A stretch of 64,000 bases of DNA, from positions 35,596-99,595 of the forward strand of contig CBDUMZ010000005.1 in assembly GCA_965368465.1 (NCBI GenBank), read 5' to 3'. The stretch's first letter is position 1. Every line of letters begins with the position of its first letter. Position numbers and translations under genes: made by a program. Positions 2 to 42,560 of this stretch are shown piece after piece. The notes below the pieces were generated by a model. It was not told the DNA's origin and did no database searches. It saw nothing but the letters and a program-made list of their open reading frames with translations. The DNA comes from an uncultured Chromatiales bacterium. GTDB taxonomy: Bacteria > Pseudomonadota > Gammaproteobacteria > Steroidobacterales > Woeseiaceae.

Positions 2-2251
2 AAGAACCTCGACATGTACCGTGAAGGCCTGGCCGACGGCAATGAACGCGTCGTCTCCGGTACGGCCTGGGCCCTGTCCAGCAGTACCGACTACAACGCG
101 AACAGCCTGCTCGAATTCTTCGAGGACGAAGAAGTCTCCAAAGCGGCCCTGATCGAAATCCTGCGGGTTCACAAGCAGGACCTCTCCGTGCACGAACTCC
201 TGCAACGCGCGTACGACTGCGAGCCCAAGGAAACGGCCGCCATCTTCAGAATCATCCAGGACACGATCAAGCCGGAAATGGTCGGCGACCTGATTGCCCG
301 CATGGGCGGCAAGGACCCGGTGATCAAGATCCACCTCATGCAGTTGCTCGCCAAATTCGACAAGCCGGAGATCAACCAGGCGCTGGAAATGCAGCTCAAG
401 GACCCGAACAAGATGGTCCGCGGTGCCGCACTTGGCGCGCTGAGTTCGCGCGGCGGGAAGATCAATGTCGCAAGAGTGGCCGAGGTACTGACCGATCCCG
501 ACCTCGACGTGCAGAGCAAAGCCGTTGACGTGCTGATCAAGGCCAAGCACCCCGATACGGTCAAGCACCTCGTCAACGCGCTCAAGGACGAATCGGAATA
601 CGCACGCCGCGCCGCCGTCGAAGTCCTGAATGAAATCGGTGACGAGTCGTCGGTCAAGGATCTGCTCAATGCGATCAAGGACGACGACTGGTGGGTGCGT
701 TCACGGGCAGGCGACGCGCTGGCGGAGATTGGCGGCCCCCGGGTTGTCGATTCTGTCGTGAGCCTCATCGGCTCCGAGGACGAGGAAATTCGTCGTACCG
801 CGATCGAGATCCTGAATGCGACCAAGAGCGACCGAGCGGAAGATCACCTGATCAAGGCCACCGACGATTCGGACTGGTGGGTGCGTGAGCGCGCGATCGA
901 CGCGCTGTCGAAGATCGGCAGCACCAAGTCACTGCCGAAACTCGAGGGCATGCTCGGGCAAAACCCCAAGACCGATACCGTGCTGATCCGGGCGCTTGGC
1001 AAGCTCGGATCGTACAAGCACATCACCAAGATCCTGCCGATGCTGCAGCGCCCGGAGCGGGAAGTGCAGCTCGAGGCCATCAAGGCGATCTCACACCTGA
1101 CCAACGACTCCCAGGCCGAGACCGTTCGCGTCCTGCTCAAGAAGATCAAGCAGTCCGAAGATCTCACGATCATCAACGCCGCCGACAAGGCGCTCAAGGA
1201 TCTCGATGACCGCTTCTCGCCGACGGTCATGGAACAGAATGCCCGCGCCAAGAAGATCGCGGAAAACACCAAGACGATGCTCGTCGACAACGAGGATCTC
1301 GAGAAGCTGTTGCAGCAGGCCAAGGAAGAAAGCGCCGTTGCGCAGGCGGATGCCGACGGCGACATCGTCCCGGCGACACCGGCCGCAGCGGCCGCGGTCT
1401 CTCACCCGATCCTCGATATCTCCAAGCTCAACCCTGGCGACATCATCGAAGGCCGCTACAAGTACATCGAGAAAATCGGCAAGGGTGCGTTCGGTACCGT
1501 GCTGCTCATGGAAGACGAGGTCGTCGACGAACAACTCATTCTCAAGTTCCTGAACCCGAACGTGTCTTCTGACGAAGAGATGATGAAGCGTTTCGTTCAC
1601 GAGCTGCGCTATTCGCGCAAAATCACACACCGCAACGTCATCCGTATTTACGACTTCCTGCATTTGCAGGGCTGTTACGCGATCTCGATGGAATACTTCC
1701 CCTCGCACACCCTGTCCGGCGAAATGCCGGACAACAAGCCGATGCCACTGGAAAAAGCGCTGCGCTACTCCCGGGATATGGCAACGGGCATGGCCGTGGC
1801 CCACCAGGCCGGTGTCATCCACCGCGATCTCAAGCCGGCGAATATCCTCGTCAATGACGAGGGCCTGCTGAAGATCGTGGACTTCGGCGTGGCAGCGGCG
1901 GCCAGTAGCGGCGATACGCAATTGACCAAGACCGGTTACGTCATCGGCTCGCCGAAATACATGGCGCCCGAGCAGATTCTCGGCAAGAAAGTCGACGAGA
2001 CCGCCGACGTCTACAGCGTCGGCGTCATCATGTACGAAATGTGTACCGGTATACCGCCATACAGTCGTGGCGACCACATGTCGGTCATGTACCAGCATGT
2101 CCAGGGCAAGGCCAAGGACTGCCAGGAGATCAATCCCGAGCTGCCGGACGATTTCGCCGCCGTCATCGTCAAAGCCATGTCTGTCGACAAGACGAAGCGC
2201 TACCAGTCGATGGAAGAGCTTACAGACGCGTTAGATACCGTTAAACTCTGA
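2..2251 (+). CDS. HEAT-repeat protein fused to a C-terminal Hanks-type Ser/Thr protein kinase (5' end probably cut by the window edge)
   Basis: ORF 14..2251. The frame stays open back to nt 2. The N-terminal ~430 aa is a run of HEAT/PBS-lyase-like repeats (DPNKMVRGAALGALS, DESEYARRAAVEVLNEIG, DDDWWVRSRAGDALAEIG, SEDEEIRRTAIEILN, DDSDWWVRERAIDALSKIG). The C-terminal ~270 aa carries kinase motifs GKGAFGTV, HRDLKPANIL, DFGVA and SPKYMAPE. Confidence 0.85.
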   Translation, partial: KNLDMYREGLADGNERVVSGTAWALSSSTDYNANSLLEFFEDEEVSKAALIEILRVHKQDLSVHELLQRAYDCEPKETAAIFRIIQDTIKPEMVGDLIARMGGKDPVIKIHLMQLLAKFDKPEINQALEMQLKDPNKMVRGAALGALSSRGGKINVARVAEVLTDPDLDVQSKAVDVLIKAKHPDTVKHLVNALKDESEYARRAAVEVLNEIGDESSVKDLLNAIKDDDWWVRSRAGDALAEIGGPRVVDSVVSLIGSEDEEIRRTAIEILNATKSDRAEDHLIKATDDSDWWVRERAIDALSKIGSTKSLPKLEGMLGQNPKTDTVLIRALGKLGSYKHITKILPMLQRPEREVQLEAIKAISHLTNDSQAETVRVLLKKIKQSEDLTIINAADKALKDLDDRFSPTVMEQNARAKKIAENTKTMLVDNEDLEKLLQQAKEESAVAQADADGDIVPATPAAAAAVSHPILDISKLNPGDIIEGRYKYIEKIGKGAFGTVLLMEDEVVDEQLILKFLNPNVSSDEEMMKRFVHELRYSRKITHRNVIRIYDFLHLQGCYAISMEYFPSHTLSGEMPDNKPMPLEKALRYSRDMATGMAVAHQAGVIHRDLKPANILVNDEGLLKIVDFGVAAAASSGDTQLTKTGYVIGSPKYMAPEQILGKKVDETADVYSVGVIMYEMCTGIPPYSRGDHMSVMYQHVQGKAKDCQEINPELPDDFAAVIVKAMSVDKTKRYQSMEELTDALDTVKL

Positions 2252-4466: not shown

Positions 4467-6476
4467 ATGTCAGACAGTCCACGAAAAATTCTCGTAACGA
4501 GCGCACTGCCGTATGTCAACGGCTCGCCCCACATGGGCCATCTCGTCGAATACATCCAGACGGATATCTGGGTGCGCTTCCAGAAGCTCCGCGGTCACGA
4601 CTGTATCTACGTGTGCGCGTCCGACGCCCATGGCACACCCATCATGCTCAAGGCGCGAGAACTCGGCATTACGCCCGAAGAGCTTACGGCCGGGTATTCA
4701 GCCGAGTTCATCCGGGACTTCGCGGATTTCGGCGTCGACTTCGACAACTTCCACACGACGCATTCTCCCGAGAACGAGGAGATCGTCGGCCGCATGTATG
4801 CCGCGCTGCGCGAGAGCGGCGACATCTATACACGGACGATCGAACAGTCCTACGACGAGAAAGAAGGCATGTTCCTGCCGGACCGTTTCGTCAAGGGTAC
4901 GTGCCCGCGTTGCAAGAGCGAGGACCAGTATGGCGATGCCTGCGAGGTGTGCGGGGCAACCTACGCCCCCGAAGACCTGATCGACCCGGTATCGGTGCTG
5001 TCCGGCACGGCACCCGTCAAGCGTGAGTCCGAGCACTATTTCTTCAGACTCAGCGAGTACGAAGACCGGCTGCGTGAATGGATGGCCGTTGCGAAACTGG
5101 ACAAGAACGTTGTCGCCAAGCTCGATGAGTGGTTTGAGGCCGGCCTGCAGGACTGGGATATCTCGCGCGACGCACCCTATTTCGGCTTCCGCATCCCGGG
5201 CACGCAGGACAAGTACTTCTATGTCTGGCTCGACGCACCCGTCGGTTACATGGCGAGCTTCAAGCACCTCTGCGACCGCACCAAGGGCCTCGAGTTCGAC
5301 GACTACTGGGGAGCAGACAGCGACGCCGAGGTGTATCACTTCATCGGCAAGGACATCATGTATTTCCACACGCTGTTCTGGCCCGCGGTACTCAAGGGCG
5401 CGGGCTTTCGGACGCCGACCAGCGTGTATGCACACGGCTTCCTGACCGTGAACGGGCAAAAGATGTCGAAGTCACGCGGCACCTTTATCAAGGCCCGTAC
5501 GTACCTCGACAATCTCAATCCGGAGTTCCTGCGTTACTACTACGCGGCGAAGCTCGGACCGACCATTGAAGATATCGACCTGAACTTCGACGACTTCATC
5601 GCGCGCGTCAACTCCGATCTGGTTGGCAAGCTGGTCAACATCGCCAGCCGCTGTGCGGGTTTTATCAGCAAGCGCTTTGACGGCAAGCTGGCCGACACGC
5701 TGCCGGACCCCGAGCTTTTCGACACGTCGTTTGCCGCGGCGGCCGCGCAGATCGCGGAGTTCTACGAGTCCAGGCAGTATTCGAAAGCCATGCGACTGAT
5801 CATGAGCCTGGCCGACACGGCGAACCAGTACATCGATGAACACAAACCCTGGGTCATGGCGAAGGACGAGAGCCAGCTCGCCAACGTTCAACTCGTGTGC
5901 ACCCAGGGCATCAACATGTTCCGCAGCCTCATGGTGTATCTCTCACCCGTGATTCCCCGCGTTGCCGCCGACGCCCGCGTCTTCCTCGACGAAGGCAATT
6001 GGAGCTGGCAGGACGCAGGCACGCCGTTGCTTGGCGTAACGCTGCCCAAATTCAATCCCCTGCTAACCCGCGTCGAAGCCGACCAGGTCGCACGCATGGT
6101 CGAACAGTCGAAAGAGAGCACACCAGTGGCTGCAACGGAAAAAGAAAACGAGTACATCAGCATCGACGATTTCGCAAAGGTCGATCTGCGCATCGCGAAG
6201 ATCGAGAAGGCCGAACCCGTTGAGGGTGCCGACAAGCTCCTGGCACTGACACTCGATGTCGGTGACGGCAAGCGACAGGTCTTCGCCGGTATCAAGGCCG
6301 CCTACGATCCTGAGTCGTTGCCTGGCCGTCACGTGATCGTCGTTGCCAACCTTGCCCCGCGCAAGATGCGCTTCGGCGTCTCGGAGGGCATGGTGTTGGC
6401 AGCCGGTCCGGGCGGTGAGGATATCTTCCTGTTGTCACCCGATGACGGTGCAAAACCGGGCATGCGCGTCAAGTAG
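4467..6476 (+). CDS. metG: Methionine--tRNA ligase with C-terminal tRNA-binding domain
   Basis: HIGH-type motif PHMGHLVEY, zinc knuckle [23 protein letters not shown] motif, and a C-terminal Trbp111/EMAP-like domain ([12 protein letters not shown]...MVLAA). Confidence 0.97.
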
Positions 6477-6509
6477 TCGTCCCGGCGCCCTAACCCGTAC
6501 AATAGAGGC

Positions 6510-7091
6510 ATGACCGAACTCTTCGTCATCCTCATCAGCACGGTACTCGTCAACAACTTCGTACTGGTGCGCTTCCTGGGGCTCTGCCCGTTCCTCGGCG
6601 TATCCCGAAATCTCGAGGCGGCGATGGGTATGTCGCTGGCCACGGCTTTCGTCCTGACCTTGTCGTCAGCCACGGCGTACCTGCTGCACGCGTATGTGCT
6701 GGTCCCGCTCGACCTCGAGTACCTGCGCACCATAGGCTTCATTCTCGTCATCGCTGCGAGTGTGCAGTTCACCGAGATCATGGTGCGCCGCATGAGCCCG
6801 ATGCTCGACCAGGTGCTGGGTATCTACATTCCGCTGATCGCGACGAATTGTGCCGTACTCGGCGTTGCGTTGCTCAACGTGCAGCAGGCCAAGGGCTTTG
6901 TGCAATCCGTCTTCTACGGATTCGGCGCGTCGGTGGGTTTCGCGCTCGTCCTTGTCATGTTTGCGGCCATTCGTGAGCGGCTCGATGCCGCGGACATCCC
7001 GGCGCCCTTTCGCGGCACCGCCATTGCGCTGATGACCGCCGGTATCATGTCGCTGGCATTCATGGGCTTCTCGGGTATGGCAAGGCCCTGA
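6510..7091 (+). CDS. rnfA: Rnf/Rsx electron transport complex subunit A
   Basis: 193-aa polytopic membrane protein with [11 protein letters not shown] and [12 protein letters not shown] motifs. First gene of an rnfABCDGE array. Confidence 0.95.
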
Positions 7092-7100
7092 TGCCCCCGT

Positions 7101-7583
7101 ATGTGGATCGCCATACTCACAATCGCCGGAATCGCACTTGTCGCAGGCATCGCGCTGAGCATCGCCCATGGCCGACTGCCGGCCGGCGAGAGCAACCTCG
7201 TGGAGCAGGTCAATGACCTGCTGCCGCAAACGCAATGTGCGCAATGCGGCTACCCCGGCTGCAGACCCTACGCGGCCGCCGTTGTCGATGGCTCGGCGGC
7301 GATCAACCTCTGCCCCCCGGGCGGTGACGACACGGTACGCCGACTGGCACGGTTGCTTGGCAAGGACCCCCTGCCCCTGGCCGCAAGCCTTGCGCCGGCC
7401 GTTGCGGTTATCGATGAACCTGCCTGTATCGGCTGTTATCTCTGCCGCAACGCCTGCCCGGTGGATGCGATCGTCGGCGCTCACCAGTTCATGCACACGG
7501 TTATCGAAAGCGAGTGCACGGGTTGCGAACTCTGTATCGCGCCCTGTCCCGTGGATTGCATCACGATGAGGCCGTTGCCGTGA
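7101..7583 (+). CDS. rnfB: Rnf complex subunit B (Fe-S)
   Basis: N-terminal TM helix, LPQTQCAQCGYPGCRPYA, CPPGG, and two ferredoxin motifs CIGCYLCRNACP and CTGCELCIAPCP. Confidence 0.93.
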   Translation: MWIAILTIAGIALVAGIALSIAHGRLPAGESNLVEQVNDLLPQTQCAQCGYPGCRPYAAAVVDGSAAINLCPPGGDDTVRRLARLLGKDPLPLAASLAPAVAVIDEPACIGCYLCRNACPVDAIVGAHQFMHTVIESECTGCELCIAPCPVDCITMRPLP

Positions 7584-9097
7584 GTGCGCCTACCTATGAT
7601 CTCGGCAAGCTGCACGGCGGGCTGCGGCTGGAGGGTCACAAGCAAGCCTCCACCGCGCAGCCGATCCTCGACGTACCGCTGCCGGCACAGCTCGTACTGC
7701 CGCTCGAGCAGCATGTTGGCGCGCCGGCACAGCCGGTGGTTAGCGTTGGTGATCGCGTGCTCAAGGGCCAGCTCCTCGCGGAGCCCGACGGTGAACTCGG
7801 TGCGCCCGTGCACGCATCGTCCTCCGGCACGGTCGTCGCCATCGAAAGCTGGCCCGTGTCACGACGCAACGGCGACAAGGCGCCGTGCATCGTGATTGAG
7901 TGCGATGGCAAGGACGAGGCACTGGCCGCCACCGCCGGCACCGACTACCTTTCCCGGGCCCCGGCCGATCTCCTGTTAAGAATTCTCGACGGCGGTATCG
8001 TCGGCCTTGGTGGCGCCGTATTTCCGACGGCGCAGAAGCTCATGCAGGCACGTACCGGCGAGCTGGAGTTCCTCATTCTCAATGGCGTCGAATGCGAGCC
8101 ATATATCAGTTGCGACGACGTACTCATGCGTGAATGTGCACCGGCAATACTGAGTGGTGCGAAAATCCTCATGCACGCGCTCCAGGTCAACGCATGCTAC
8201 GTCGTGGTTGAGAGCGACAAACCCGAAGCCATCGCACGCCTCGGCGAAGCACTCGCCGAACTCGGCGACGAGCGCATCGTACTGAAACAGGTGCCGACCA
8301 TTTACCCGTCGGGCGGCGAAGACCAGCTCGTGCAGCTCGTGACGAATCGCGAGGTCCCCAGTGGCGGCTTGCCGACGGACGTGGGCTGCGTCGTCCAGAA
8401 CGTTGGCACGGCAGCAGCGGTGCATGACTGGATCGTCAACAACCAGCCGCTGATCTCTCGCGTGACTACCGTAACGGGCGACGGTGTCGTATCGCCGATC
8501 AATGTCCGCGCGCGGATCGGTACGCCGGTCGAAGAAGTCATCAGGCACGCGGGCGGTTACACAGAGAACGTAAAGCACCTGGTCATCGGCGGCCCGATGA
8601 CCGGCCGGTCTGTCACGACCGACGCAGTGCCGCTTGTCAAAGCGAGTAACTGCGTGCTGGCCCTCGCGGAGCCTGCAACGGCAGGTGACGAACTGCCCTG
8701 CATTCGTTGCGGTGACTGTGCCGCCGTCTGCCCGGTACAGTTGCTGCCGCAGCAGCTGTTCTGGTACGCGTGCGCGGACGATGAACAAAAGTTGCGTGAG
8801 TTCGGTCTGCTCGACTGCATCGAGTGCGGGTGTTGCGATCTCGTCTGCCCGAGTCACATCCCCCTGACCGCGGATTTTCGTATTGCGAAGGGCCGCATCC
8901 GTGAACTTGCCGACGAAAAGGCGCGGGCAGAGCGCGCGCGCCAGCGATTCGAAGCGCGCAACCGGCGTCTCGAGCGGGAACAGCTTGCGCGCGATGCCGA
9001 GCTTTCTCGCCAGAAAGACTCGGCAAAACGTGCGGGCCCTGCCGCGATCGCCGAGATACTGAAACGGAAGCAGGGATCCAGGGATGATTCGGCGTGA
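7580..9097 (+). CDS. rnfC: Rnf complex subunit C
   Basis: GIVGLGGAVFPT, ILNGVECEPY, two 4Fe-4S motifs (CIRCGDCAAVCP, CIECGCCDLVCP). I place the start at GTG 7580, overlapping the rnfB stop (GTGA). The ORF-track ATG at 7514 lies inside rnfB. Confidence 0.9.
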   Translation: MSAPTYDLGKLHGGLRLEGHKQASTAQPILDVPLPAQLVLPLEQHVGAPAQPVVSVGDRVLKGQLLAEPDGELGAPVHASSSGTVVAIESWPVSRRNGDKAPCIVIECDGKDEALAATAGTDYLSRAPADLLLRILDGGIVGLGGAVFPTAQKLMQARTGELEFLILNGVECEPYISCDDVLMRECAPAILSGAKILMHALQVNACYVVVESDKPEAIARLGEALAELGDERIVLKQVPTIYPSGGEDQLVQLVTNREVPSGGLPTDVGCVVQNVGTAAAVHDWIVNNQPLISRVTTVTGDGVVSPINVRARIGTPVEEVIRHAGGYTENVKHLVIGGPMTGRSVTTDAVPLVKASNCVLALAEPATAGDELPCIRCGDCAAVCPVQLLPQQLFWYACADDEQKLREFGLLDCIECGCCDLVCPSHIPLTADFRIAKGRIRELADEKARAERARQRFEARNRRLEREQLARDAELSRQKDSAKRAGPAAIAEILKRKQGSRDDSA

Positions 9098-10149
9098 AGT
9101 TTGAGATTCGTGAAGCGCCGTACTGGTCGCCGCAGGCGAGCGTTGCGTCGATGATGCTGCAGGTTCTTGCAGCACTGGTGCCCGCGGCGATCGCGCATGT
9201 CTGGTTTTTCGGCCCCGGCTTCATCTTCAATCTCCTGGTTGCGGGGATCTTCGCCGTTGCCGGCGAGGCTGTCGTGCTCCGGGCACGGGGAAGACCTGTC
9301 GAGGTCGCGTTAACCGACTACAGCGCGCTGGTCACCGCCGCCCTCCTCGCCTTCGCCCTGCCGTCGCTGACGCCATGGTGGGTTACGGCCACGGGCGCGC
9401 TGTTCGGTGTCGTCGTGGCCAAGCACCTTTACGGCGGGCTGGGCTTCAATATCTTCAATCCGGCGATGGCAGGCTATGTCGTTATTCTCGTGACATTCCC
9501 GATGTACCTGAACCTCTGGACCGCGCCACGGATGGGCGATATCGATTACCAGCAATTGAGTGTTCTGCAAACGCTCGTCTTCACACTGACGGGCAACCTG
9601 CCCGAGATGCTGGGTTTCGACGCCGTCAGTCGCGCGACCCCGCTCGACGTGATGAAGTCCGGCCTCAACAACATGGCAACGGCCACCGAGATTCGCGCCA
9701 ACCCGGTGATGGGTGACTTCGGCGGCCGCGGCTGGGAGTGGATCGGCAATTTCCTCGCCATCGGCGGATTCTGGCTGCTCATTCGCAAGATCATTCGCTG
9801 GCAAATTCCCGCGGGTGTCGGCCTCGGCCTGCTCGGGCCCGCGACGATCATGTACCTGCTCGATCCCGGCAGCAGTCCCGGTCCCGGCTTTCACCTCTTC
9901 GCCGGCGCCACGATCCTCTGCGCGTTTTTCATCGCCACCGACCCGGTATCTGCCGCGACCAGCCCGAAAGGGCGATTCATTTACGGCGTGGGCATCGGTT
10001 TCCTGATCTGGTGCATTCGCCGCTGGGGCAGCTACGCCGACGGCGTCGCGTTCGCCGTGCTGATAATGAACATGGCGGTACCTGCAATCGACTACCTGAC
10101 GCGCCCGCGCATCGTCGGTCATCGAAAAGGAGCGGACGCCGATGGCTGA
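9094..10149 (+). CDS. rnfD: Rnf complex subunit D
   Basis: 351-aa polytopic membrane protein with NqrB/RnfD-like features (GLGFNIFNPAMAGYV, ATDPVSA). The start overlaps the rnfC stop. Confidence 0.93.
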   Translation: MKFEIREAPYWSPQASVASMMLQVLAALVPAAIAHVWFFGPGFIFNLLVAGIFAVAGEAVVLRARGRPVEVALTDYSALVTAALLAFALPSLTPWWVTATGALFGVVVAKHLYGGLGFNIFNPAMAGYVVILVTFPMYLNLWTAPRMGDIDYQQLSVLQTLVFTLTGNLPEMLGFDAVSRATPLDVMKSGLNNMATATEIRANPVMGDFGGRGWEWIGNFLAIGGFWLLIRKIIRWQIPAGVGLGLLGPATIMYLLDPGSSPGPGFHLFAGATILCAFFIATDPVSAATSPKGRFIYGVGIGFLIWCIRRWGSYADGVAFAVLIMNMAVPAIDYLTRPRIVGHRKGADADG

Positions 10150-10786
10150 GAGCTCCGTTATGAGAAGCGGTGTGACGCTGGCCGGTATCGCGGCAATCTG
10201 TACTGCGCTCGTCGCCATCACCTACCAGGTCACGAACGAACGCATCGTCGCAAACGAGCAGGCATGGCTGGAGCAGAGCCTGGCACCGGCGCTGTCCGGC
10301 CTGTTCTTCGACAGCGGCGTCAGCGAGTCGGTGCTGACCATACCCGCGCCGCACGAACTACCCGGTGCGGAGGACGCCATCGTATACCGCGTGTATTCAG
10401 GTGAGTCGCCGGTCGCCGCCCTCTTCGTCGTCAGTGCCCGGGACGGTTACGCGGGCGCCATCCGGTTGCTGATCGGTATCGACGTCGATGGCAAGGTAAC
10501 CGGCGTTCACGTGCTCGCACATCGGGAAACGCCGGGCCTCGGCGATCGGGTCGAGTCGGACAAGTCCGATTGGGTGCAGCAGTTCGACGGCCGCTCGCTC
10601 GGCGACCCGGCACCGGGCGGCTGGCAGATCAAGCGTGACGGTGGCGAGTTTGACCAGCTGACCGGCGCATCCGTCACACCGCGGGCCATCGTCAAGGCGA
10701 TCCGGGAAACCCTGCAATACTTCGATGCAAACGCGGCGGCCATTTTTGCGGCAGAGGCCGATGCCCCGGAAGAGGTTGGCGAATGA
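10142..10786 (+). CDS. rnfG: Rnf complex subunit G (FMN-binding)
   Basis: N-terminal anchor, HRETPGLGD and the FMN attachment region QLTGASVTPRA. Overlaps rnfD by 8 nt. Confidence 0.9.
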   Translation: MAESSVMRSGVTLAGIAAICTALVAITYQVTNERIVANEQAWLEQSLAPALSGLFFDSGVSESVLTIPAPHELPGAEDAIVYRVYSGESPVAALFVVSARDGYAGAIRLLIGIDVDGKVTGVHVLAHRETPGLGDRVESDKSDWVQQFDGRSLGDPAPGGWQIKRDGGEFDQLTGASVTPRAIVKAIRETLQYFDANAAAIFAAEADAPEEVGE

Positions 10787-11370
10787 ACACCCCCGACAAT
10801 ACGCGCTTCGTGGATCGCCTGAAGACCGGCCTCTGGTATGAGAATCCGGGCCTGGTCCAGTTGCTCGGCCTCTGCCCGCTGCTCGCCGTGACATCGACCT
10901 TCATCAACGGCCTGGGCCTCGGTATCGCCACGCTGTGCGTGCTCGTCGCCTCGAACGCGCTCGTATCCGCGACCCGGCGGTGGATTCGCCGGGAAATACG
11001 CATCCCTATTTACGTGCTCATCATTGCGAGCCTCGTGACCTGCACCGAGTTGATCTTCAAGGCCTGGTTCCCGGCGCTCGATCGTTCCCTCGGCATCTTC
11101 ATTCCACTCATCGTGACCAACTGCGCGATTGTCGCGCGCGCTGAGATCTTCGCCTCCAGGAACCCCGTCGGCACGAGCATCGTCGACGGACTTGTCATGG
11201 GCATTGGCTTCGCGCTGTTGCTCATTGCGATTGGCATCTTTCGCGAACTCATCGCGATGGGCTGGCTGCTCGCCCTCCTGCCACCTGGTGCCTTTTTCAG
11301 CCTCGCGCTGGCGATCGCAGCCAAGAACGCGATCGACGGCAAGCAGAAATCCCGTAAGCTGCATCGGTAG
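10783..11370 (+). CDS. rnfE: Rnf complex subunit E
   Basis: NPGLVQLLGLCPLLAVT, IPLIVTNCAIVARAE, LPPGAFF. Overlaps the rnfG stop (ATGA). Shorter (195 aa) than E. coli RsxE as I remember it. Confidence 0.9.
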   Translation: MNTPDNTRFVDRLKTGLWYENPGLVQLLGLCPLLAVTSTFINGLGLGIATLCVLVASNALVSATRRWIRREIRIPIYVLIIASLVTCTELIFKAWFPALDRSLGIFIPLIVTNCAIVARAEIFASRNPVGTSIVDGLVMGIGFALLLIAIGIFRELIAMGWLLALLPPGAFFSLALAIAAKNAIDGKQKSRKLHR

Positions 11371-11375
11371 GACGT

Positions 11376-12011
11376 ATGAACAAGGAAAAGCGCACAGCCA
11401 TTTACCGTACGCTGCGTGAGCGCATGCCCGCACCCACGACGGAACTCGAGTACGTCAACGCATTCGAGTTGCTGATCGCCGTCATTCTCTCCGCGCAGGC
11501 GACGGATGTCAGCGTCAACAAGGCGACCGCGAAGCTCTACCCGGTCGCCAACACACCCGAGTCCATACTCGCGCTGGGTGTCGATGGCCTCAAACCCTAT
11601 ATTCGCACGATCGGCCTCTACAACAGCAAAGCCGAGAACATCATCAAGACCTGTCGCATCCTGATTGAACGACACGGCGGTGAGGTTCCGCGCACCCGGC
11701 CGGAACTCGAGGCATTGCCCGGGGTCGGAAGGAAAACGGCCAATGTCATACTGAATACCGCGTTCGGCGAACCGACGATTGCCGTCGACACGCACATTTT
11801 TCGCGTTGCGAACCGCACCGGTCTCGCGAAAGGAAAAACGCCGTTCGAGGTGGAGAAACGGCTCGTCCGGCTGACGCCCGATGAGTTCAAGAAAGACGCG
11901 CATCACTGGTTGATCCTGCACGGCCGCTACGTCTGCAAGGCCCGCAAACCGCTTTGCGGGGAATGCCCGATCCGCGAGTGCTGCGAGTTTACGAAAAAGG
12001 ATTTGCCATGA
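11376..12011 (+). CDS. nth: Endonuclease III
   Basis: HhH-GPD motif LPGVGRKTANV, catalytic-region VDTHIFRV, and C-terminal Fe-S cluster CKARKPLCGECPIRECC. Sits downstream of rnfE as in enterobacteria. Confidence 0.96.
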   Translation: MNKEKRTAIYRTLRERMPAPTTELEYVNAFELLIAVILSAQATDVSVNKATAKLYPVANTPESILALGVDGLKPYIRTIGLYNSKAENIIKTCRILIERHGGEVPRTRPELEALPGVGRKTANVILNTAFGEPTIAVDTHIFRVANRTGLAKGKTPFEVEKRLVRLTPDEFKKDAHHWLILHGRYVCKARKPLCGECPIRECCEFTKKDLP

Positions 12012-12427
12012 TTTTCGGCCAGGACCGCAATGAGTTACGCCAGATGTATGCCGATGCATGGCGGAAATACTGCGACAAGACGCCGTTGACACCGCTGGAG
12101 GCGCAGATTGCCGACGTCGTGGCGCTGCATCCCGAATACCACGGCGAAGTTTCGGGCGAGAACCTCACTCGCGACTACACGCCGGATGGCGGCCGGACCA
12201 ACCCGTTTCTGCACATGGGACTGCATCTCGGTATTCGGGAGCAGGTGGGAACGAATCGTCCCGCGGGCATCGCGGCCATCCACCGTGCCCTGTGTGCAAA
12301 GCATGGCGACGTGCACGCCGCCGAGCACGAGATGATCGAATGCCTGGCCGAAGCCCTGTGGGAGGCCCAGAGCAACAACCAGCCACCCGATGAGGCCCGC
12401 TACCTGGAACGCCTGAAGCAACTGTAA
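12008..12427 (+). CDS. DUF1841-family protein
   Basis: MIFGQDRNELRQMYADAWRKY...HPEYH...NPFLHMGLHL resembles the DUF1841 family as I remember it. The ATG at 12008 overlaps the nth stop, and the track's upstream extension lies inside nth. Confidence 0.7.
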   Translation: MIFGQDRNELRQMYADAWRKYCDKTPLTPLEAQIADVVALHPEYHGEVSGENLTRDYTPDGGRTNPFLHMGLHLGIREQVGTNRPAGIAAIHRALCAKHGDVHAAEHEMIECLAEALWEAQSNNQPPDEARYLERLKQL

Positions 12428-12489
12428 TAAAAGCGGGCCGCCCGTGGTCTGGTCAGATAACGAATATTGTGGACGTCGTAGGGGACGTT

Positions 12490-13344
12490 ATGAGCGACCG
12501 CCAGTCAAAATACCCGGTACAAGGTGCAGGCCTGGGCTTGCGCCGCCCGATTGCCGACCAGCTGATGGCGAATCCGCCGGCGGACGTGGACTTCATGGAG
12601 GTTGCCCCGGAGAACTGGATTCACGTCGGCGGCAAGCTCGGCAAGAAGCTGCGCTTCTTTACCGAGCGTTACCCCTTCGTCATCCACGGCCTCTCGCTGT
12701 CCATTGGCGCGCCGTCGCCGCTCAACGAGCAACTGGTCAGGGACATCAAGGACTTCATGTCCGACCACAACATTCGCATGTATTCGGAACACCTGAGTTA
12801 TTGCGGTGACGACGGTCAGCTCTACGACCTCATGCCCATTCCGTTTACCGAGGAGGCAGTCAGGTACGTCGCCGGTCGCGTGCGCCGCGTGCAGGACATT
12901 CTCGAACAGCGCATGGCACTCGAGAATGTCAGCTTCTACGCCCCGATCGATACGTCGATGACTGAACGCGAATTCCTGCTGGCCGTCATCGAGGAAGCGG
13001 ACTGCGACCTGATGCTCGACATCAACAACATCGTGGTCAACAGCATCAACCATCGCTACGATGCCCGCGAATTCCTGCGCGCAATGCCGGCGGACCGCAT
13101 TCGGTATTTCCACCTCGCCGGTCATTTTGTCGAAGACGAAGACCTGCGCATCGATACCCATGGCACGCCCGTCGACGAGCAGGCCTGGGCACTGCTCGAA
13201 GAGGCCTACCGCCTCTACGGTCCCGTTCCGACGCTGCTCGAGCGCGACTTCAACTTCCCACCGATGGAAGAGCTGCTGGACGAGGTGCGCCGCATCAAGC
13301 ACCTGCAGATCGCGGCCCAGGGCAAGGACGCGGTCAATGGCTGA
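12490..13344 (+). CDS. DUF692/UPF0276 multinuclear non-haem iron oxidative enzyme (MNIO; BufB/HvfB-like RiPP maturase)
   Basis: TIM-barrel UPF0276 signature blocks GLGLRR, VIHGLSLSIG, YSEHLS, ALENVS, LDINN, FHLAGH, TLLERD. The ATG at 12490 is preceded by AGGGGA. Confidence 0.85.
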   Translation: MSDRQSKYPVQGAGLGLRRPIADQLMANPPADVDFMEVAPENWIHVGGKLGKKLRFFTERYPFVIHGLSLSIGAPSPLNEQLVRDIKDFMSDHNIRMYSEHLSYCGDDGQLYDLMPIPFTEEAVRYVAGRVRRVQDILEQRMALENVSFYAPIDTSMTEREFLLAVIEEADCDLMLDINNIVVNSINHRYDAREFLRAMPADRIRYFHLAGHFVEDEDLRIDTHGTPVDEQAWALLEEAYRLYGPVPTLLERDFNFPPMEELLDEVRRIKHLQIAAQGKDAVNG

Positions 13345-14110
13345 CTCGCGTTCCTTCAAGGACAAGCAGTACGCTTTCGCCGCGCACATCCGCGATCCCG
13401 AGCATGTTGCCGCGCCCGAGGGAATCGAACCACGGCGCATGGCAATCTACCGCAAGTTGTTCTTCAACAACCTCTACAACCTGCTCGCCACGTTCTTCCC
13501 GGTCATGCGCAAGATCCACTCCGATGCCCAGTGGCGCCGCTTCGTGCGCGGCTTCATGCAACACCACCAGTCCGAGACGCCCTACTTCCTCGAGTTGCCC
13601 CGGGAGTTCCTGGCCTACCTGCAGGACGAGTTCGAAGCGAGCAGCGAGGACTACCCGTTTCTCCTGGAACTCGCCCACTACGAATACGCCGAGCTCGAAC
13701 TCTCGGTATCGGACGAGGCAACCGACCTCGACGGTGTGGACCCGAACGGCGACTTGCTGACCGGCGTTCCCGTGAAATCCTCACTCGCACGCGCCTATGC
13801 CTACCGCTTTGCCGTGCATCGGATTTCGCCGGGTTTCCTGCCCGACGAACCGGAGCAGCAGCCGGTCTACCTCGCGCTGTACCGCGGCAGCGACGACTCG
13901 GTCGGCTTTCTCGAACTCAATGCCGTAACGGCGGCGCTGCTGGATGCCATTGAATTCAATACCGACAACAGGACCGGCGCGGAGCTGCTCAGAGCGCTCG
14001 CCGCCAGGATCGAATACCCCGACCCCGACGCGCTGGTCACGCACGGGTCCAATGCATTGCGGGAGATGCGGCAGCTGGAGATTCTGACCGGCACCCGCAG
14101 CCCCGCCTGA
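13337..14110 (+). CDS. DUF2063-family MNIO partner protein (BufC/HvfC-like)
   Basis: IYRKLFFNNLYNLLATFFP...PYFLELPREFLAYL...LELAHYEYAE matches the DUF2063 N-terminal pattern. The start overlaps the DUF692 stop (ATGGCTGA). Confidence 0.8.
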   Translation: MADSRSFKDKQYAFAAHIRDPEHVAAPEGIEPRRMAIYRKLFFNNLYNLLATFFPVMRKIHSDAQWRRFVRGFMQHHQSETPYFLELPREFLAYLQDEFEASSEDYPFLLELAHYEYAELELSVSDEATDLDGVDPNGDLLTGVPVKSSLARAYAYRFAVHRISPGFLPDEPEQQPVYLALYRGSDDSVGFLELNAVTAALLDAIEFNTDNRTGAELLRALAARIEYPDPDALVTHGSNALREMRQLEILTGTRSPA

Positions 14111-14121
14111 AGGAGGAACCC

Positions 14122-14625
14122 GTGAGCGCTCTCATCAACCTTGGAAACCGCATTATCGACAAGCTCGATCCGGCCGGCGCCTGGATCGCACTACTTCCCA
14201 TTCGCCTGCTCATGGCCTGGGAGTACGGTCGCGCCGGGCTGATGAAGTACAACGGCACCAACTGGTTTGCCAACGTCCAGGATAACTTCCCGTTCCCGTT
14301 CAACGTCATTCCGGTCGAGATCAGCTGGTTTCTCGCAACCTGGGCGGAGATCCTGGGCGGCCTGTGCCTCTTGCTGGGCCTGTTTACACGCTTCTGGGCA
14401 TTCAGCCTCATCGTCCTGACCATCGTCGCCATCGCCGGTGTGCACTGGCCCGAGCAGTGGAACTCGCTGGCGGAATTGTGGCGAGGGTACTCGATCACGG
14501 ACAACGGTTTCGGCAATTACCGCATCCCGTTGTTGTTCATGGCCATGCTGTTGCCGCTGGTCTTTGTCGGCGGTGGCAAGTTGAGCCTCGACCACATCCT
14601 GTTCCAGAAACCGGGCAGGCGCTAA
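14122..14625 (+). CDS. DoxX-family membrane protein (BufD/HvfX-like)
   Basis: Four-TM protein with DoxX-like LLMAWEYGRAGLMK and EILGGLCLLLGLFTR. GTG start 11 nt after DUF2063. Confidence 0.8.
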   Translation: MSALINLGNRIIDKLDPAGAWIALLPIRLLMAWEYGRAGLMKYNGTNWFANVQDNFPFPFNVIPVEISWFLATWAEILGGLCLLLGLFTRFWAFSLIVLTIVAIAGVHWPEQWNSLAELWRGYSITDNGFGNYRIPLLFMAMLLPLVFVGGGKLSLDHILFQKPGRR

Positions 14626-29432: not shown

Positions 29433-31319
29433 ATGAAACTCGCGTACCAGGGACTGCTGCTGACAGCCGCCCTCATCCTGACAGCCTGCGGCGGCGGTGC
29501 CGGATCCACCGCCGTTACCGATCCCATGCCAACCGCCCAATGCGACCCGAATGACCCGGCGACGCACTCCGAGTGCGGCACCGTACTCGTTGCCCTCACC
29601 GATGCAGACGGCGATTTCCTCAACTACACGGTCGATGTCCTGTCGCTCGAACTGGAAACAGCCAACGGCCGCATCGTTGAGACACTGCCGCGCACGACGC
29701 GCATCAACTTCACCGACTACGTTGACCTGACCGAACTGGTAACGGCCGCCACCGTGCCGCCCGCAATCTACGTTGCCGGCACGATTCGCCTCGACTACAG
29801 CAATGCGGAAGTTTTCGTGGAAGCCGGAGACGCTTCCAAGGCAGCTATCGTCAGGGACGTCGATGGCAACGTCCTGACCCAGACGGAACTCAGGATCGAG
29901 CTTTCGAACCGCGAGCGCCTCGTCGTCACCCGCGGCCGACCCGCGCTGCTGCAACTCGACTTCGACCTCGCGGCATCGCATACCGTCGATATCGTGCCGA
30001 CCCCGGCCGAAGCCGTATCCGAGCAGTTTATTCTCGCGGAAGTCATGCCCGTCGACGAAAAGGACATACGCGTTCGCGGCCCCCTGGTTAGCGTCAGCCA
30101 GGACGAGATGACCTACACCGTGGCGATACGCCCGTTCCACGACCGCCAGGGTGATTTCGGACGCCACACGATCCACGTAAGCGGCGAAACGGAATTCGAA
30201 GTCAACGAAGAGATGTATGTCGGGCTGGACGGCCTGCGTGCACTCGAAGCCGCCGGCCCGGGTACCCCCACCGTTGCCGCAGGCACACTGAGCGTTGCCG
30301 CTCGCGAGTTCACCGCCGATATCGTACTTGCCGGCTCCAGCGTCCCGGGCATCCATCGCGACGCCGTGGTTGGCAACGTCATCAAGCGTGAAGGCAATTT
30401 CCTCACGATCCGCGGTGCCACGATCATTCCCGCGGATCGCCGCGCACACTTCCACGACGACGTCGTCGTCGAAGTCGGCCCGGACACGCGGGTATTTCGC
30501 GACGGCCACCGCCTGAGCGATCTCGGTATCGACGCGATTTCGATTGGCCAGCGTGTGACCGTTCGTGGTTCGCAGCCGACACCGACGACCGACGCCGCGG
30601 CACCGCAGATCCTGTTCGACGCGACCCAGGGCGTGGTTCGTATGCACCTGACCCGCCTCAGCGGTATCGTCAACACGGTCATGCCGGGCCAGACCGACAT
30701 CACGTTGCATGGCATCGACCGCCGCCGCGTAGAGATCTTCGACTTCGCGGGCACGGGTGCATCGGCCGAACTCGATGCCGATCCCGACAACTACGAGGTT
30801 GCAACCGGCAACTTGACACTGGCGAACTTCGCCGCCGGCAAGGCGATCGTCGCGAAGGGCTTCCCGAACGCGTTCGGCACGGCGCCGCCCGACTTCGCTG
30901 GCCGCACCGTCATCGACTACACGGACGTTCGTAGTGCACTGGGTATTGGCTGGGGTGCTGAAGGCACGGCTGCGCCGTTTGCGAGCATTGGTCCCGACGG
31001 CCTGACGCTCGACAACGACAACGAAGACATCGACGTGCGCCACTACATCAAGCAAGGCCCGGTCCTTATCGACCTCACCGCGCTGAATTCCGACACCGTT
31101 ATCGTGCCGCGCGAGTCCAACCGGAAGGCGTTCTACATCAAGTCGGCCGACAGCATGCGCATGTACTCCGATTTCGCCGACTTTTTCGTCGATCTCAACG
31201 CAAGCCTCGACGGCGCTACCGTGGCCCGCTCGATGCATGCGCGCGGCCAGTACGACGCCGACAGCAATGTCTTTACGGCCTACAAGATTGGCGTTTACCT
31301 GATTGAGCCAGTGAACTGA
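29433..31319 (+). CDS. Large lipoprotein of unknown function (N-terminal region DUF4382-like)
   Basis: Lipobox LILTACGGG, AAGGAGA RBS, and an N-terminal VLVALTDADGDFLNYTVDVLSLELE pattern reminiscent of DUF4382. Acidic, Thr/Val-rich, beta-rich composition. Confidence 0.75.
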   Translation: MKLAYQGLLLTAALILTACGGGAGSTAVTDPMPTAQCDPNDPATHSECGTVLVALTDADGDFLNYTVDVLSLELETANGRIVETLPRTTRINFTDYVDLTELVTAATVPPAIYVAGTIRLDYSNAEVFVEAGDASKAAIVRDVDGNVLTQTELRIELSNRERLVVTRGRPALLQLDFDLAASHTVDIVPTPAEAVSEQFILAEVMPVDEKDIRVRGPLVSVSQDEMTYTVAIRPFHDRQGDFGRHTIHVSGETEFEVNEEMYVGLDGLRALEAAGPGTPTVAAGTLSVAAREFTADIVLAGSSVPGIHRDAVVGNVIKREGNFLTIRGATIIPADRRAHFHDDVVVEVGPDTRVFRDGHRLSDLGIDAISIGQRVTVRGSQPTPTTDAAAPQILFDATQGVVRMHLTRLSGIVNTVMPGQTDITLHGIDRRRVEIFDFAGTGASAELDADPDNYEVATGNLTLANFAAGKAIVAKGFPNAFGTAPPDFAGRTVIDYTDVRSALGIGWGAEGTAAPFASIGPDGLTLDNDNEDIDVRHYIKQGPVLIDLTALNSDTVIVPRESNRKAFYIKSADSMRMYSDFADFFVDLNASLDGATVARSMHARGQYDADSNVFTAYKIGVYLIEPVN

Positions 31320-42005: not shown

Positions 42006-42017
42006 TGTTCCAGGCCC

Positions 42018-42560
42018 CTATACCAGGTAATAGACATTGGGTTCATTGCCCGTCTCGGGTTTGAGTACCTTGTGGTCGCGCGTCTTCAGCAACTGGCTGA
42101 CCTTGCTGTGCGGGTCATCCAGCGTGCCGAAATACATGCACCCGGTCGGGCACGTCGACACGCAGGCCGGGTCCAGGCCTTTCTCGACCCGGTGGTGGCA
42201 GAACGTGCACTTGTCGATGTAGCCATCGGGATGCATGACGAGACGCGCGTCGTACGGGCAAGCCGCTATACAGGCTTTGCAGCCCGTGCACTTCTCGGGC
42301 TCGACGAGCACGATGTTCGTACCCTTCCAGAGGTGACTCGCGCCGGTCGGACACAGCGTGACGCAAGTCGGGTTCGAGCAATGATTGCAGCGCTCCGAAC
42401 GAAACTCGGTTTTGAGGTCGGGATAGGTGCCACTCGTCGCCTCGACAACCCAGTCCCTGTTCAGCCCTTCCGGAACGTTGTTCTCGGTCTTGCAGGCCAC
42501 CACACAGTCGCCGCAGCCGATGCAGGTGCGCGTATCGATGACCATGACAAAGCGCGTCAT
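42018..42560 (-). CDS. 4x[4Fe-4S] electron-transfer subunit (PsrB/DmsB-like)
   Basis: CIGCGDCVVAC, CNHCSNPTCVTLCP, CTGCKACIAACP, CTFCHHR...CVSTCP. Confidence 0.92.
   Translation of the reverse strand: MTRFVMVIDTRTCIGCGDCVVACKTENNVPEGLNRDWVVEATSGTYPDLKTEFRSERCNHCSNPTCVTLCPTGASHLWKGTNIVLVEPEKCTGCKACIAACPYDARLVMHPDGYIDKCTFCHHRVEKGLDPACVSTCPTGCMYFGTLDDPHSKVSQLLKTRDHKVLKPETGNEPNVYYLV

What the first reader, a model, noticed from the sequence alone, without database searches (positions are those of the whole stretch)
12490..14625. MNIO (DUF692)-DUF2063-DoxX RiPP-maturation cassette with no adjacent precursor gene
DUF692 + DUF2063 + DoxX is the modification and export core of the bufferin/Hvf class of copper-binding RiPPs. 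In that class a signal-peptide precursor (DUF2282 or an EGKCG-repeat peptide) normally sits immediately upstream of the MNIO.

Here the MNIO start is 62 nt after the stop of a cytoplasmic DUF1841 gene that is itself coupled to nth. The gap contains no ORF, and the 99 nt after DoxX contain none either.

Either the precursor is encoded elsewhere, or it is a new and very small or atypical peptide, or this cassette acts on a non-canonical substrate.
Basis: partly seen in the sequence, partly recalled or inferred. Interest (0 to 1): 0.65.

Follow-up and report, generated by a model that had tools for sequence, protein, structure and literature searches.

The report
Peptide-maturing operon missing its peptide gene
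A marine-sediment bacterium (family Woeseiaceae) keeps intact, well-conserved genes for the enzymes that turn a cysteine-rich peptide into a copper-binding molecule, but the gene for that peptide was deleted from its usual place in the ancestor of the whole group, so the substrate is either encoded elsewhere or is something not yet described.

Summary
Window 12490-14625 encodes HvfB (MNIO), HvfC (DUF2063 partner) and HvfX (DoxX). All three score above NCBI's curated cut-offs, and no precursor gene lies beside them or anywhere in the 64 kb.

This is not an artefact or a one-off. The same nth-DUF1841-hvfB-hvfC-hvfX layout recurs in at least 23 independent assemblies, about 55 species-level Woeseiales genomes and 37 metagenome contigs. 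Relatives with the same wider gene order carry a canonical hvfA in exactly this slot, behind the same conserved promoter-like motif (TGTAATAA-N15-GGTCT).

On an HvfB tree, all Woeseiales and Steroidobacteraceae orphans form one clade, which implies a single ancient deletion of hvfA that kept the promoter.

The cassette is still under purifying selection (dN/dS 0.13-0.23). HvfB keeps the Arg-Arg and Asp-Phe residues reported to select EGKCG-type substrates.

Most likely (about 0.58), HvfBC acts in trans on an HvfA-like peptide encoded elsewhere. I could not find that gene, because no tool let me scan a whole Woeseiaceae genome. A new substrate remains possible (about 0.2). A tiny local ORF, DUF1841 as substrate and gene decay are all rejected.

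Orphan MNIO loci are already known in bulk, so interest is moderate.

The parts
11376..12011 (+). nth (endonuclease III). It is the last conserved gene of the metG-rnfABCDGE-nth block that precedes hvf operons in many Gammaproteobacteria.
   Evidence: Pfam HhH-GPD, HHH and EndIII_4Fe-2S. The same synteny is seen.
12008..12427 (+). DUF1841 gene, translationally coupled to nth. It is a neighbour, not a substrate.
   Evidence: PF08897 at 2.1e-52. Its start overlaps the nth stop. It has no signal peptide, and its three Cys are not conserved among 52 orthologues. It coexists with hvfA in L077 and L207.
12423..12450 (+). Conserved two-block promoter-like motif, TGTAATAA-N15-GGTCT, with ECF-sigma-like geometry. 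It overlaps the DUF1841 stop codon and ends 39 nt before the hvfB ATG.
   Evidence: It is the only match in the window. It occurs exactly once per locus, just upstream of hvfB, in 36 relatives' loci (alignment) and in 37 metagenome loci. The same motif lies upstream of hvfA in the syntenic canonical relatives L130, L213 and L215. It also lies upstream of a secreted redoxin gene.
12490..13344 (+). hvfB, the multinuclear non-haem iron oxidative enzyme (MNIO, formerly DUF692).
   Evidence: NF003818 scores 416 bits, above the 360 cut-off. Closest structure is PDB 3BWW at E 5e-70. dN/dS is 0.13. R18, R19 and D253 are invariant in 55/55 orphan orthologues and F254 in 54/55.
13337..14110 (+). hvfC, the DUF2063 partner protein (PME type 1). 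It has an N-terminal MNIO-binding domain and a C-terminal NGO1945_C peptide-recognition domain.
   Evidence: NF050145 scores 282 bits against a 142 cut-off. PF09836 and PF22106 hit. PDB 3DEE hits at 1.5e-11. dN/dS is 0.15 for the N-domain and 0.19 for the C-domain.
14122..14625 (+). hvfX, a DoxX-family membrane protein of unknown role.
   Evidence: NF050144 scores 141 bits against an 80 cut-off. PF07681 hits. dN/dS is 0.20. GTG start with an AGGAGG ribosome-binding site.

Best explanation
This is a functional hvfB-hvfC-hvfX maturation operon of the oxazolin/captophorin class, and its cognate precursor gene hvfA was deleted from the operon.

**Inferred history.** In the common ancestor of Woeseiales and Steroidobacteraceae the locus was nth-(DUF1841)-promoter-hvfA-hvfB-hvfC-hvfX. 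A deletion removed hvfA and its 5' leader and joined the promoter-like motif directly to hvfB.

**Inferred mechanism.** The operon is still switched on from that promoter. The motif has ECF-sigma-like geometry and is shared with a secreted thioredoxin-fold redoxin gene. In the cytoplasm, HvfC would bind the leader of a Sec-signal, Cys-rich peptide. HvfB would convert the Cys of (E)G(K/S)CG-type motifs to 5-thiooxazoles, and the product would be exported to bind Cu(I). The substrate would be one or more HvfA-like peptides encoded at a distant locus, so the enzymes act in trans.

**Shown:** gene identities, clade-wide loss of the adjacent precursor, the ancestral layout, the retained cis motif, purifying selection, and the retained specificity residues.

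**Inferred, not shown:** promoter function, the chemistry, and the existence of a distal precursor.
For: **Identity.** HvfB, HvfC and HvfX all score above the curated equivalog cut-offs.

**Clade-wide and stable.**
- The nth-DUF1841-hvfB-hvfC-hvfX order holds in about 55 species-level genomes and in 37 metagenome contigs.
- None of them has an HvfA motif within about 6-9 kb either side.

**Ancestral slot.**
- L077 and L207 have nth-DUF1841-hvfA-hvfB-hvfC.
- L213, L215 and L217 share the window's wider gene order (metG-rnf-nth ... RNase T ... nadC). They carry hvfA between the same TGTAATAA-N15-GGTCT motif and hvfB. L130 has the same arrangement.
- On a neighbour-joining (NJ) tree of HvfB, all 58 Woeseiales and Steroidobacteraceae orphans form one clade with no hvfA-bearing member.

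**Still functional.**
- dN/dS is 0.13 for HvfB, 0.23 for HvfC and 0.20 for HvfX, against 0.12 for nth.
- The peptide-recognition domain of HvfC has dN/dS 0.19. It has diverged from canonical HvfC only slightly more than canonical proteins diverge from each other.

**Substrate type.**
- R18, R19, D253 and F254 correspond to FonB Arg15, Arg16, Asp249 and Phe250. Those FonB residues are conserved only in MNIOs that act on Lys-Cys (EGKCG) substrates (PMC13097082).
- The window residues are invariant in 55/55 orphan orthologues (54/55 for Phe).
- Only one alignment column separates orphan from canonical HvfB.

**Precedent.** Stand-alone Buf/EGKCG precursor genes, and about 4,000 MNIOs with no adjacent known precursor, are reported in PMC12452194.
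Against: **No distal hvfA was found.**
- It is absent from the 64-kb window.
- The strict-motif metagenome scan returned 37 Woeseiaceae hvfB loci but no Woeseiaceae-like hvfA behind the same promoter.
- All 10 HvfA gene contexts returned by my seven look-ups were next to an hvfB.
- None of the 240 listed HvfA hits carried a Woeseia or Steroidobacter name. However, only the top 120 of more than 7,600 and of 2,059 hits were visible, so this is weak evidence.

**Caveats on the supporting evidence.**
- The match to FonB residues rests on motif position (GLGLRR, ERDF), not on an alignment with FonB itself.
- dS is near saturation (about 1.4), so dN/dS values are approximate.
Confidence: 0.58

Rival explanations
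1. New substrate. The clade has no HvfA-type gene at all. HvfBC now modifies a different Cys-containing target, for example a larger secreted or periplasmic protein or a peptide family not yet described.
For: - No hvfA turned up in any Woeseiales DNA I could read: about 1 Mb in total, all of it around this one locus, plus two redoxin loci.
- The loss is ancient and was never reversed locally in at least 58 lineages.
- The landscape paper admits that many MNIOs in this mega-cluster have no identifiable precursor.
Against: - The residues linked to EGKCG recognition are invariant.
- Only one column distinguishes orphan from canonical HvfB.
- The HvfC recognition domain shows no unusual divergence.
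- DUF2063 partners correlate with Sec-signal precursors (PMC12452194).
Confidence: 0.2
2. Precursor-independent role. HvfB, HvfC and HvfX were retained for another function, such as a regulatory or redox role. DUF2063 was once annotated as a putative DNA-binding domain.
For: - Purifying selection continues without a cis substrate.
- The motif is shared with a redoxin gene.
- DoxX proteins are linked to thiol and oxidative stress (PMC11252979).
Against: - Partner proteins of this type are almost always encoded beside MNIOs as dedicated partners (PMC13097082).
- The catalytic and substrate-contact residues are conserved.
Confidence: 0.1
3. A tiny or atypical precursor is encoded locally: in the 62-nt or 99-nt gaps, overlapping hvfB in another frame, or fused to one of the three proteins. 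Alternatively, DUF1841 is the substrate.
For: An ORF at 12444-12809 (121 aa, several Cys) starts in the gap.
Against: - The gaps are 24-144 nt and hold a promoter-like motif, not an ORF.
- The alternative frame is open for at least 100 codons in only 12 of 53 relatives, with a median of 46.
- HvfC has no Cys and HvfX has one, in a transmembrane segment.
- DUF1841 cysteines are not conserved, and DUF1841 is absent from the Steroidobacteraceae orphans.
- There is no Rfam match.
Confidence: 0.03
4. The cassette is a decaying remnant or an assembly artefact.
For: None beyond the missing precursor.
Against: - All three ORFs are intact in about 90 loci.
- dN/dS is 0.13-0.23, similar to housekeeping nth.
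- The gene order is identical in at least 23 independent assemblies.
Confidence: 0.02

Closest known systems
Oxazolin system hvfX-hvfA-hvfB-hvfC of nontypeable Haemophilus influenzae (Manley et al. 2024, PMC11252979)
   Same: HvfB, HvfC and HvfX all score as equivalogs. The closest solved structure is the Histophilus somni orthologue 3BWW.
   Different: There is no hvfA. The gene order is B-C-X rather than X-A-B-C. The operon sits downstream of rnf-nth-DUF1841.
Fontiphorin FonABC and the captophorin class (Gadgil et al. 2026, PMC13097082)
   Same: It is an MNIO paired with a DUF2063 partner protein. The Arg-Arg and Asp-Phe motifs that this paper ties to Lys-Cys (EGKCG) substrates are present. 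The expected chemistry is Cys to 5-thiooxazole.
   Different: The locus has no Cys-rich precursor, which that paper lists as one of the three defining features of the gene cluster.
Syntenic canonical relatives L213, L215 and L217 (metagenome-assembled genomes that NCBI labels 'Lysobacterales bacterium'), and L207
   Same: They share the wider gene order metG-rnfABCDGE-nth-...-hvfB-hvfC-DoxX-...-RNase T-...-nadC. L213 and L215 have the same TGTAATAA-N15-GGTCT motif. HvfB is 60-62% identical and, in L213 and L215, HvfX 51-52%.
   Different: They keep hvfA between the motif and hvfB. In L213, L215 and L217 it has EEGSCG/EGKCG repeats. L207 uses a different promoter-like motif (GAAACTTT-N15-GGTCGTA), and its DoxX is only 32% identical to the window's HvfX.
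Bufferins BufABC(D) (PMC12452194)
   Same: The core is MNIO plus DUF2063 plus DoxX, with a role in copper stress. That paper reports stand-alone precursor genes and MNIOs with no adjacent precursor.
   Different: The BufB equivalog scores below its cut-off (263 against 310). There is no DUF2282 or Buf_6/12Cys gene.
Trans-encoded RiPP precursors such as the prochlorosins, where one ProcM serves many scattered procA genes (from my own knowledge, not tested here)
   Same: One maturase serves precursors encoded at distant loci.
   Different: The enzyme class is different. Here the distant precursors are hypothetical.

Membership tests
HvfB family MNIO (NCBIfam NF003818) | The equivalog HMM score reaches the curated cut-off of 360 bits. 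| tested here: met
   416.4 bits, covering profile positions 1-264 of 264. PF05114 hits at 7.9e-101.
HvfB family MNIO (NCBIfam NF003818) | Conserved catalytic and substrate-contact residues: the FonB Arg15/Arg16 and Asp249/Phe250 equivalents, plus the conserved His/Asp/Glu set. | tested here: met
   R18, R19, D253 and F254 are present and invariant in the orphan orthologues. 29 His/Asp/Glu/Asn columns are nearly invariant across 80 sequences. Correspondence to FonB is by motif position, not by direct alignment with FonB.
HvfC partner protein (NF050145; DUF2063 plus NGO1945_C) | The equivalog score reaches 142 bits, both domains are present, and the gene lies next to an MNIO. | tested here: met
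   282 bits. PF09836 and PF22106 both hit. There is an 8-nt overlap with hvfB.
HvfX (NF050144; DoxX) | The equivalog score reaches 80 bits. | tested here: met
   141.4 bits.
Complete Hvf/captophorin gene cluster | A Cys-rich precursor with a Sec signal (HvfA; NF050137 or NF050188) is encoded in the locus. | tested here: not met
   No such ORF occurs in the six frames of the 64-kb window or within about 6-9 kb either side in about 90 related loci. The same scans find HvfA in every canonical outgroup.
Complete Hvf/captophorin gene cluster | The product carries 5-thiooxazoles and binds Cu(I). | not testable with these tools
   This needs expression, mass spectrometry and UV/NMR measurement.
Bufferin maturase BufB (NF050167) | The equivalog score reaches 310 bits, and a DUF2282 or Buf_6/12Cys precursor is present. 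| tested here: not met
   263 bits. No signal-peptide ORF with multiple Cys was found. DUF2282 was not searched with its own HMM on small ORFs.
Methanobactin MbnB (TIGR04159) | The equivalog score reaches 325 bits. | tested here: not met
   51.4 bits.
ECF-sigma-dependent promoter | Two conserved blocks at fixed spacing, placed just upstream of the gene; a cognate sigma factor; and a mapped transcription start. | tested here: inconclusive
   The block structure, the fixed 15-nt spacer and the position are strongly conserved. Canonical outgroups carry GAAACTTT-N~15-GTCGTA at the same place. The sigma factor and the transcription start are unknown. A sigma-70 scan found nothing here.

The most novel reading that the evidence does not exclude
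Woeseiales and Steroidobacteraceae encode no HvfA-type peptide anywhere. After hvfA was lost, their HvfBC(X) was kept because it installs thiooxazole or related modifications on a different class of target. That target could be a secreted or periplasmic protein, or an undescribed peptide family, in the same regulon as the co-regulated redoxin. This would extend this MNIO clade beyond dedicated RiPP precursors, in one of the most abundant bacterial groups of marine sediments.
Probability: 0.2. Interest if true: 0.75.

Novelty: new variant of a known kind. Interest (0 to 1): 0.4.

Why it matters
MNIO-partner pairs occur in about half of reference Pseudomonadota genomes (PMC13097082). A sizeable share of them have no recognisable neighbouring precursor (PMC12452194), and nobody has explained what those orphans do.

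This locus offers a clean natural case:
- A single datable deletion of hvfA.
- Retention of the promoter-like motif and all three maturation genes under purifying selection across two orders.
- Canonical, syntenic sister lineages available for comparison.

Woeseiaceae are cosmopolitan and abundant in marine sediments. Whether and how they make copper-binding thiooxazole peptides therefore bears on copper handling in that habitat.

If a distal precursor exists, this is an ordinary in-trans RiPP system. If it does not, the enzyme family has a substrate class not yet described.

Tried and rejected
**Local candidates, all rejected**
1. A small ORF in the 62-nt and 99-nt gaps. There is none, and the gaps in relatives are 24-144 nt.
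2. The overlapping alternative-frame ORF at 12444-12809. It is not conserved.
3. DUF1841 as substrate. Its cysteines are not conserved, and it coexists with hvfA elsewhere.
4. A precursor fused to HvfB, HvfC or HvfX. HvfC has no Cys and HvfX one, in a transmembrane segment; the two Cys of HvfB are not in EGKCG-type motifs.
5. An RNA element in the region. There is no Rfam hit at E<=1.
6. Sigma-70 promoters or intrinsic terminators between DUF1841 and the permease. None were found.

**Searches for the distal precursor, all without result**
7. A regulon-guided search using the strict motif against metagenome contigs. It returned hvfB loci, a redoxin gene and one canonical hvfA-hvfB locus, but no Woeseiaceae hvfA.
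8. Two HvfA protein searches. Seven context look-ups on their hits returned ten places, and in every one hvfA sat next to an hvfB.
9. Searches of the supplements of the two MNIO landscape papers for Woeseia, Lentisalinibacter and, in one of the two, Steroidobacter and DUF1841. Nothing is held. No paper contains both Woeseia and DUF692.

**Other checks**
10. The remainder of the window holds no copper gene, ECF sigma or precursor.
11. The long hvfA 5' leader of L213 does not fold significantly better than shuffled sequence (z = -1.18).
Full report
**1.

On the + strand the window encodes, in order:
- rnfD, rnfG and rnfE
- nth (11376-12011)
- a DUF1841 gene (12008-12427), whose ATG overlaps the nth stop
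- a 62-nt gap
- an MNIO gene (12490-13344)
- a DUF2063 gene (13337-14110), with an 8-nt overlap
- a DoxX gene (14122-14625), with a GTG start behind an AGGAGG site
- a 99-nt gap
- an amino-acid permease

Pfam confirms every domain. NCBIfam is more precise:
- HvfB scores 416 bits against a cut-off of 360.
- HvfC scores 282 against 142.
- HvfX scores 141 against 80.
- The bufferin maturase model BufB fails, at 263 against 310.

So this is the Hvf (oxazolin/captophorin) type. The closest solved structures are 3BWW for HvfB (E 5e-70) and 3DEE for HvfC.

No precursor is present. No EGKCG or GKCG repeat ORF exists in any frame of the 64 kb. There is no looser x-C-[G/A/S] cluster. There is no small coding-like ORF with a signal peptide and Cys. 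The larger intergenic regions hold a glutaredoxin, a BON lipoprotein and a cold-shock gene.

The exact HvfB protein is on at least 23 contigs from independent ENA assemblies; the six shown all have the same gene order. The arrangement is therefore not an assembly artefact.

**2. Source organism and how widespread the arrangement is**

A genome scan returned 80 loci. The closest (70-88% HvfB identity) are Woeseiaceae genomes assembled from metagenomes.

Mapping the neighbours shows nth-DUF1841-hvfB-hvfC-hvfX in about 55 species-level genomes, including Lentisalinibacter. The DUF1841-hvfB gap is only 24-144 nt in all of them. None has an HvfA signature within 6 kb either side, meaning neither G[KQEN]CG repeats nor the NPFxMxxLxxGY leader motif.

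Three Steroidobacteraceae loci have nth joined directly to hvfB.

**3. What used to be in the slot**

Outgroups at 61-66% HvfB identity carry a canonical HvfA immediately upstream of hvfB. It has a signal peptide, the NPFAMSELSSGYM leader and EGKCG repeats, and the two such proteins scanned score above the cut-off of NCBIfam's HvfA domain model. Many of these operons also follow nth.

L077 and L207 show rnf-nth-DUF1841-hvfA-hvfB-hvfC-DoxX. That is the window's layout plus hvfA.

The best comparators are L213, L215 and L217. They share the window's wider gene order: metG-rnfABCDGE-nth ... RNase T ... nadC (RNase T and nadC in the window). Their HvfB is 60-62% identical and their HvfX 51-52%. 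They carry an hvfA with EEGSCG/EGKCG repeats between nth and hvfB.

On a neighbour-joining tree of HvfB, the 55 Woeseiales and 3 Steroidobacteraceae orphans form one clade with no hvfA-bearing member. The most economical reading is a single ancient deletion. A second, independent orphan lineage (L070, L078, L085: nth-DoxX-hvfB) nests among canonical loci.

**4. A retained cis element**

The short gap upstream of hvfB is not random sequence. TGTAATAW-N15-GGTCT occurs exactly once per locus, just upstream of hvfB, in 36 relatives' loci and in the window at 12423-12450. Variants keep the same spacing: GTAATAT-N15-GGTCC in Steroidobacteraceae and GTGAAATAT-N15-GGTCC in the Lentisalinibacter group.

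Canonical outgroups have GAAACTTT-N~15-GTCGTA at the equivalent place upstream of hvfA. The syntenic relatives L130, L213 and L215 have the Woeseiaceae-type motif itself upstream of hvfA. The deletion therefore removed hvfA and its 100-210-nt leader and joined the motif to hvfB.

The two-block, fixed-spacer form resembles ECF-sigma promoters. That is my inference: no sigma factor or transcription start is known, and a sigma-70 scan finds nothing here.

I scanned metagenome contigs with the strict 16-base form of the motif.
- 37 rows were Woeseiaceae-type hvfB loci.
- One was the canonical L130.
- Four had the motif 27-28 nt upstream of a secreted AhpC/TSA-Redoxin protein with a WCPYC motif.
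- Almost all of the rest were low-GC matches that look like chance.

Homologues of that redoxin include one that NCBI names as Woeseiaceae. The motif is also present upstream of more distant homologues (L211, L212). The motif thus appears to mark a small regulon that includes hvfBCX and a periplasmic thiol-redox protein.

**5. Is the cassette still working?**

Pairwise dN/dS among Woeseiaceae orthologues is 0.13 for HvfB, 0.23 for HvfC and 0.20 for HvfX. For comparison it is 0.12 for nth and 0.20 for DUF1841. dS is near saturation, so these values are approximate.

The C-terminal peptide-recognition domain of HvfC is as constrained as the rest of the protein, at 0.19. Its divergence from canonical HvfC is only slightly greater than divergence among canonical proteins at matched HvfB distance.

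Gadgil et al. (PMC13097082) showed that FonB Arg15/Arg16 and Asp249/Phe250 contact the EGKCG motif. They also showed that the second Arg and the Phe are conserved only in MNIOs that act on Lys-Cys substrates. The window has R18-R19 (GLGLRR) and D253-F254 (ERDF). These are invariant in 55/55 orphan orthologues (Phe in 54/55), and only one alignment column separates orphan from canonical HvfB.

The enzyme therefore looks like an ordinary HvfB that still expects an EGKCG-like substrate.

**6. Where is the substrate?**

Local alternatives fail:
- The alternative-frame ORF at 12444-12809 is not conserved.
- DUF1841 cysteines are not conserved. DUF1841 also coexists with hvfA in L077 and L207 and is absent from the Steroidobacteraceae orphans.
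- HvfC has no Cys.
- There is no Rfam match.

Efforts to find a distal hvfA also failed:
- Two HvfA protein searches gave more than 7,600 and 2,059 hits. Only the top 120 of each are listed, and none is named Woeseia or Steroidobacter.
- The seven HvfA look-ups returned ten places, and in all ten hvfA was next to an hvfB.
- The regulon scan found no Woeseiaceae hvfA.

**7. Comparison with the literature**

The landscape study (PMC12452194) reports three relevant points:
- About 4,000 MNIOs of the main cluster have no known adjacent precursor.
- Sizeable fractions of precursors are not next to an MNIO.
- The authors suggest that such precursors are modified by enzymes encoded elsewhere.

Orphan cassettes are therefore known in bulk but not explained. 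That paper's main text does not mention DUF1841, the parts of its supplements that are held do not contain DUF1841 or the nth and Rnf domain names, and neither paper's held supplements mention Woeseia.

The chemistry was first assigned as oxazolone/thioamide (PMC11252979) and has since been revised to 5-thiooxazole (PMC13097082). The role of HvfX is unknown, so "export core" overstates what is known.

**8. Verdict**

This is a genuine, clade-wide variant of the Hvf/captophorin system that lacks its precursor gene.

- Most likely (about 0.58) it acts in trans on an HvfA-like peptide encoded elsewhere.
- A new substrate is possible (about 0.2).
- A role that needs no precursor is less likely (about 0.1).
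- A local micro-ORF, gene decay and assembly artefact are effectively excluded.

Novelty: a new variant of a known kind. Interest is moderate, at 0.4.

Noticed in passing
window 4467-14625; also L062, L063, L066, L074, L076, L077, L130, L207, L210, L213, L215, L217: hvf operons sit immediately downstream of the metG-rnfABCDGE-nth block in many unrelated Gammaproteobacteria, with or without DUF1841. I found no mention of this recurrent linkage of a copper-peptide operon to the Rnf/endonuclease III (Fe-S) block in the two MNIO landscape papers or their held supplements (DUF1841 and the nth/Rnf domain names searched only in PMC12452194).
   Followed up: partly
L111:3680-4437; L134:2114-2846; L149; L193; L211:9944-10675; L212 (about 60 nt upstream of 10001): The same (T)GTAATAA-N15-GGTCT motif lies 27-30 nt upstream of a secreted AhpC/TSA-Redoxin protein with a WCPYC motif in four independent lineages. 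One homologue is named Woeseiaceae by NCBI. This suggests a shared regulon with hvfBCX.
   Followed up: partly
L213:8001-8366; L215:8001-8342; L130; proteins P0241-P0360: A large HvfA subfamily (2,059 clusters at E<=0.001) has repeats that are mostly GEKGxEGSCG, with Ser-Cys instead of Lys-Cys. Pfam's collagen model (PF01391) hits many of them. Their MNIOs may accept Ser at the position before Cys.
   Followed up: no
L213:7790-8000; L130:153-360: The hvfA genes of this subfamily have a 100-210-nt conserved 5' leader. It ends in a terminator-like hairpin (CCCGG-N11-CCGGG followed by a run of T) just before the ribosome-binding site, which could be an attenuator. The overall fold is not better than shuffled sequence (z = -1.18).
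   Followed up: partly
L013:8134-9615; L018, L023, L025, L037; L209:6067-7581; L210:6687-8216: A membrane protein of about 500 aa from the glutamate-synthase (PF01645) family recurs next to hvfC or DoxX. It appears in both canonical and several Woeseiaceae loci but is absent from this window. It may be an unrecognised accessory gene.
   Followed up: partly
L210:5188-6645: A single 485-aa gene product carries HvfC_N, HvfC_C and DoxX domains. This natural HvfC-DoxX fusion argues for a physical link between HvfX and the maturation complex.
   Followed up: no
L207:7634-10339: In the canonical DUF1841-hvfA-hvfB-hvfC-DoxX locus, a heavy-metal P-type ATPase with an HMA domain (CopA-like) follows DoxX directly. 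This fits a copper role.
   Followed up: no
L070, L078, L085 (two are closed chromosomes of about 1.9 Mb: OY759361.1 and OZ242174.1): A second, independent lineage without a precursor has the order nth-DoxX(216-242 aa)-hvfB-hvfC. No hvfA lies within 6 kb either side and the Woeseiaceae-type motif is absent. These small closed genomes would be ideal for an exhaustive precursor search.
   Followed up: no
window 40394-46028 (- strand): A sulfur-metabolism cluster: a rhodanese, an NrfD/4Fe-4S/molybdopterin oxidoreductase set resembling polysulfide or thiosulfate reductase, and two YeeE/YedE-type sulfur-transport proteins.
   Followed up: partly
window 29433-31319 (+), 46118-46777 (-), 47533-48348 (-), 62906-63832 (-): Four sizeable ORFs (628, 219, 271 and 308 aa) with coding-like GC3 have no Pfam match (the first three at E<=0.001, the 308-aa ORF at E<=1e-5).
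   Followed up: no
window 14-2251 (+): A 745-aa protein combines N-terminal HEAT repeats with a C-terminal eukaryotic-type Ser/Thr protein kinase domain.
   Followed up: no
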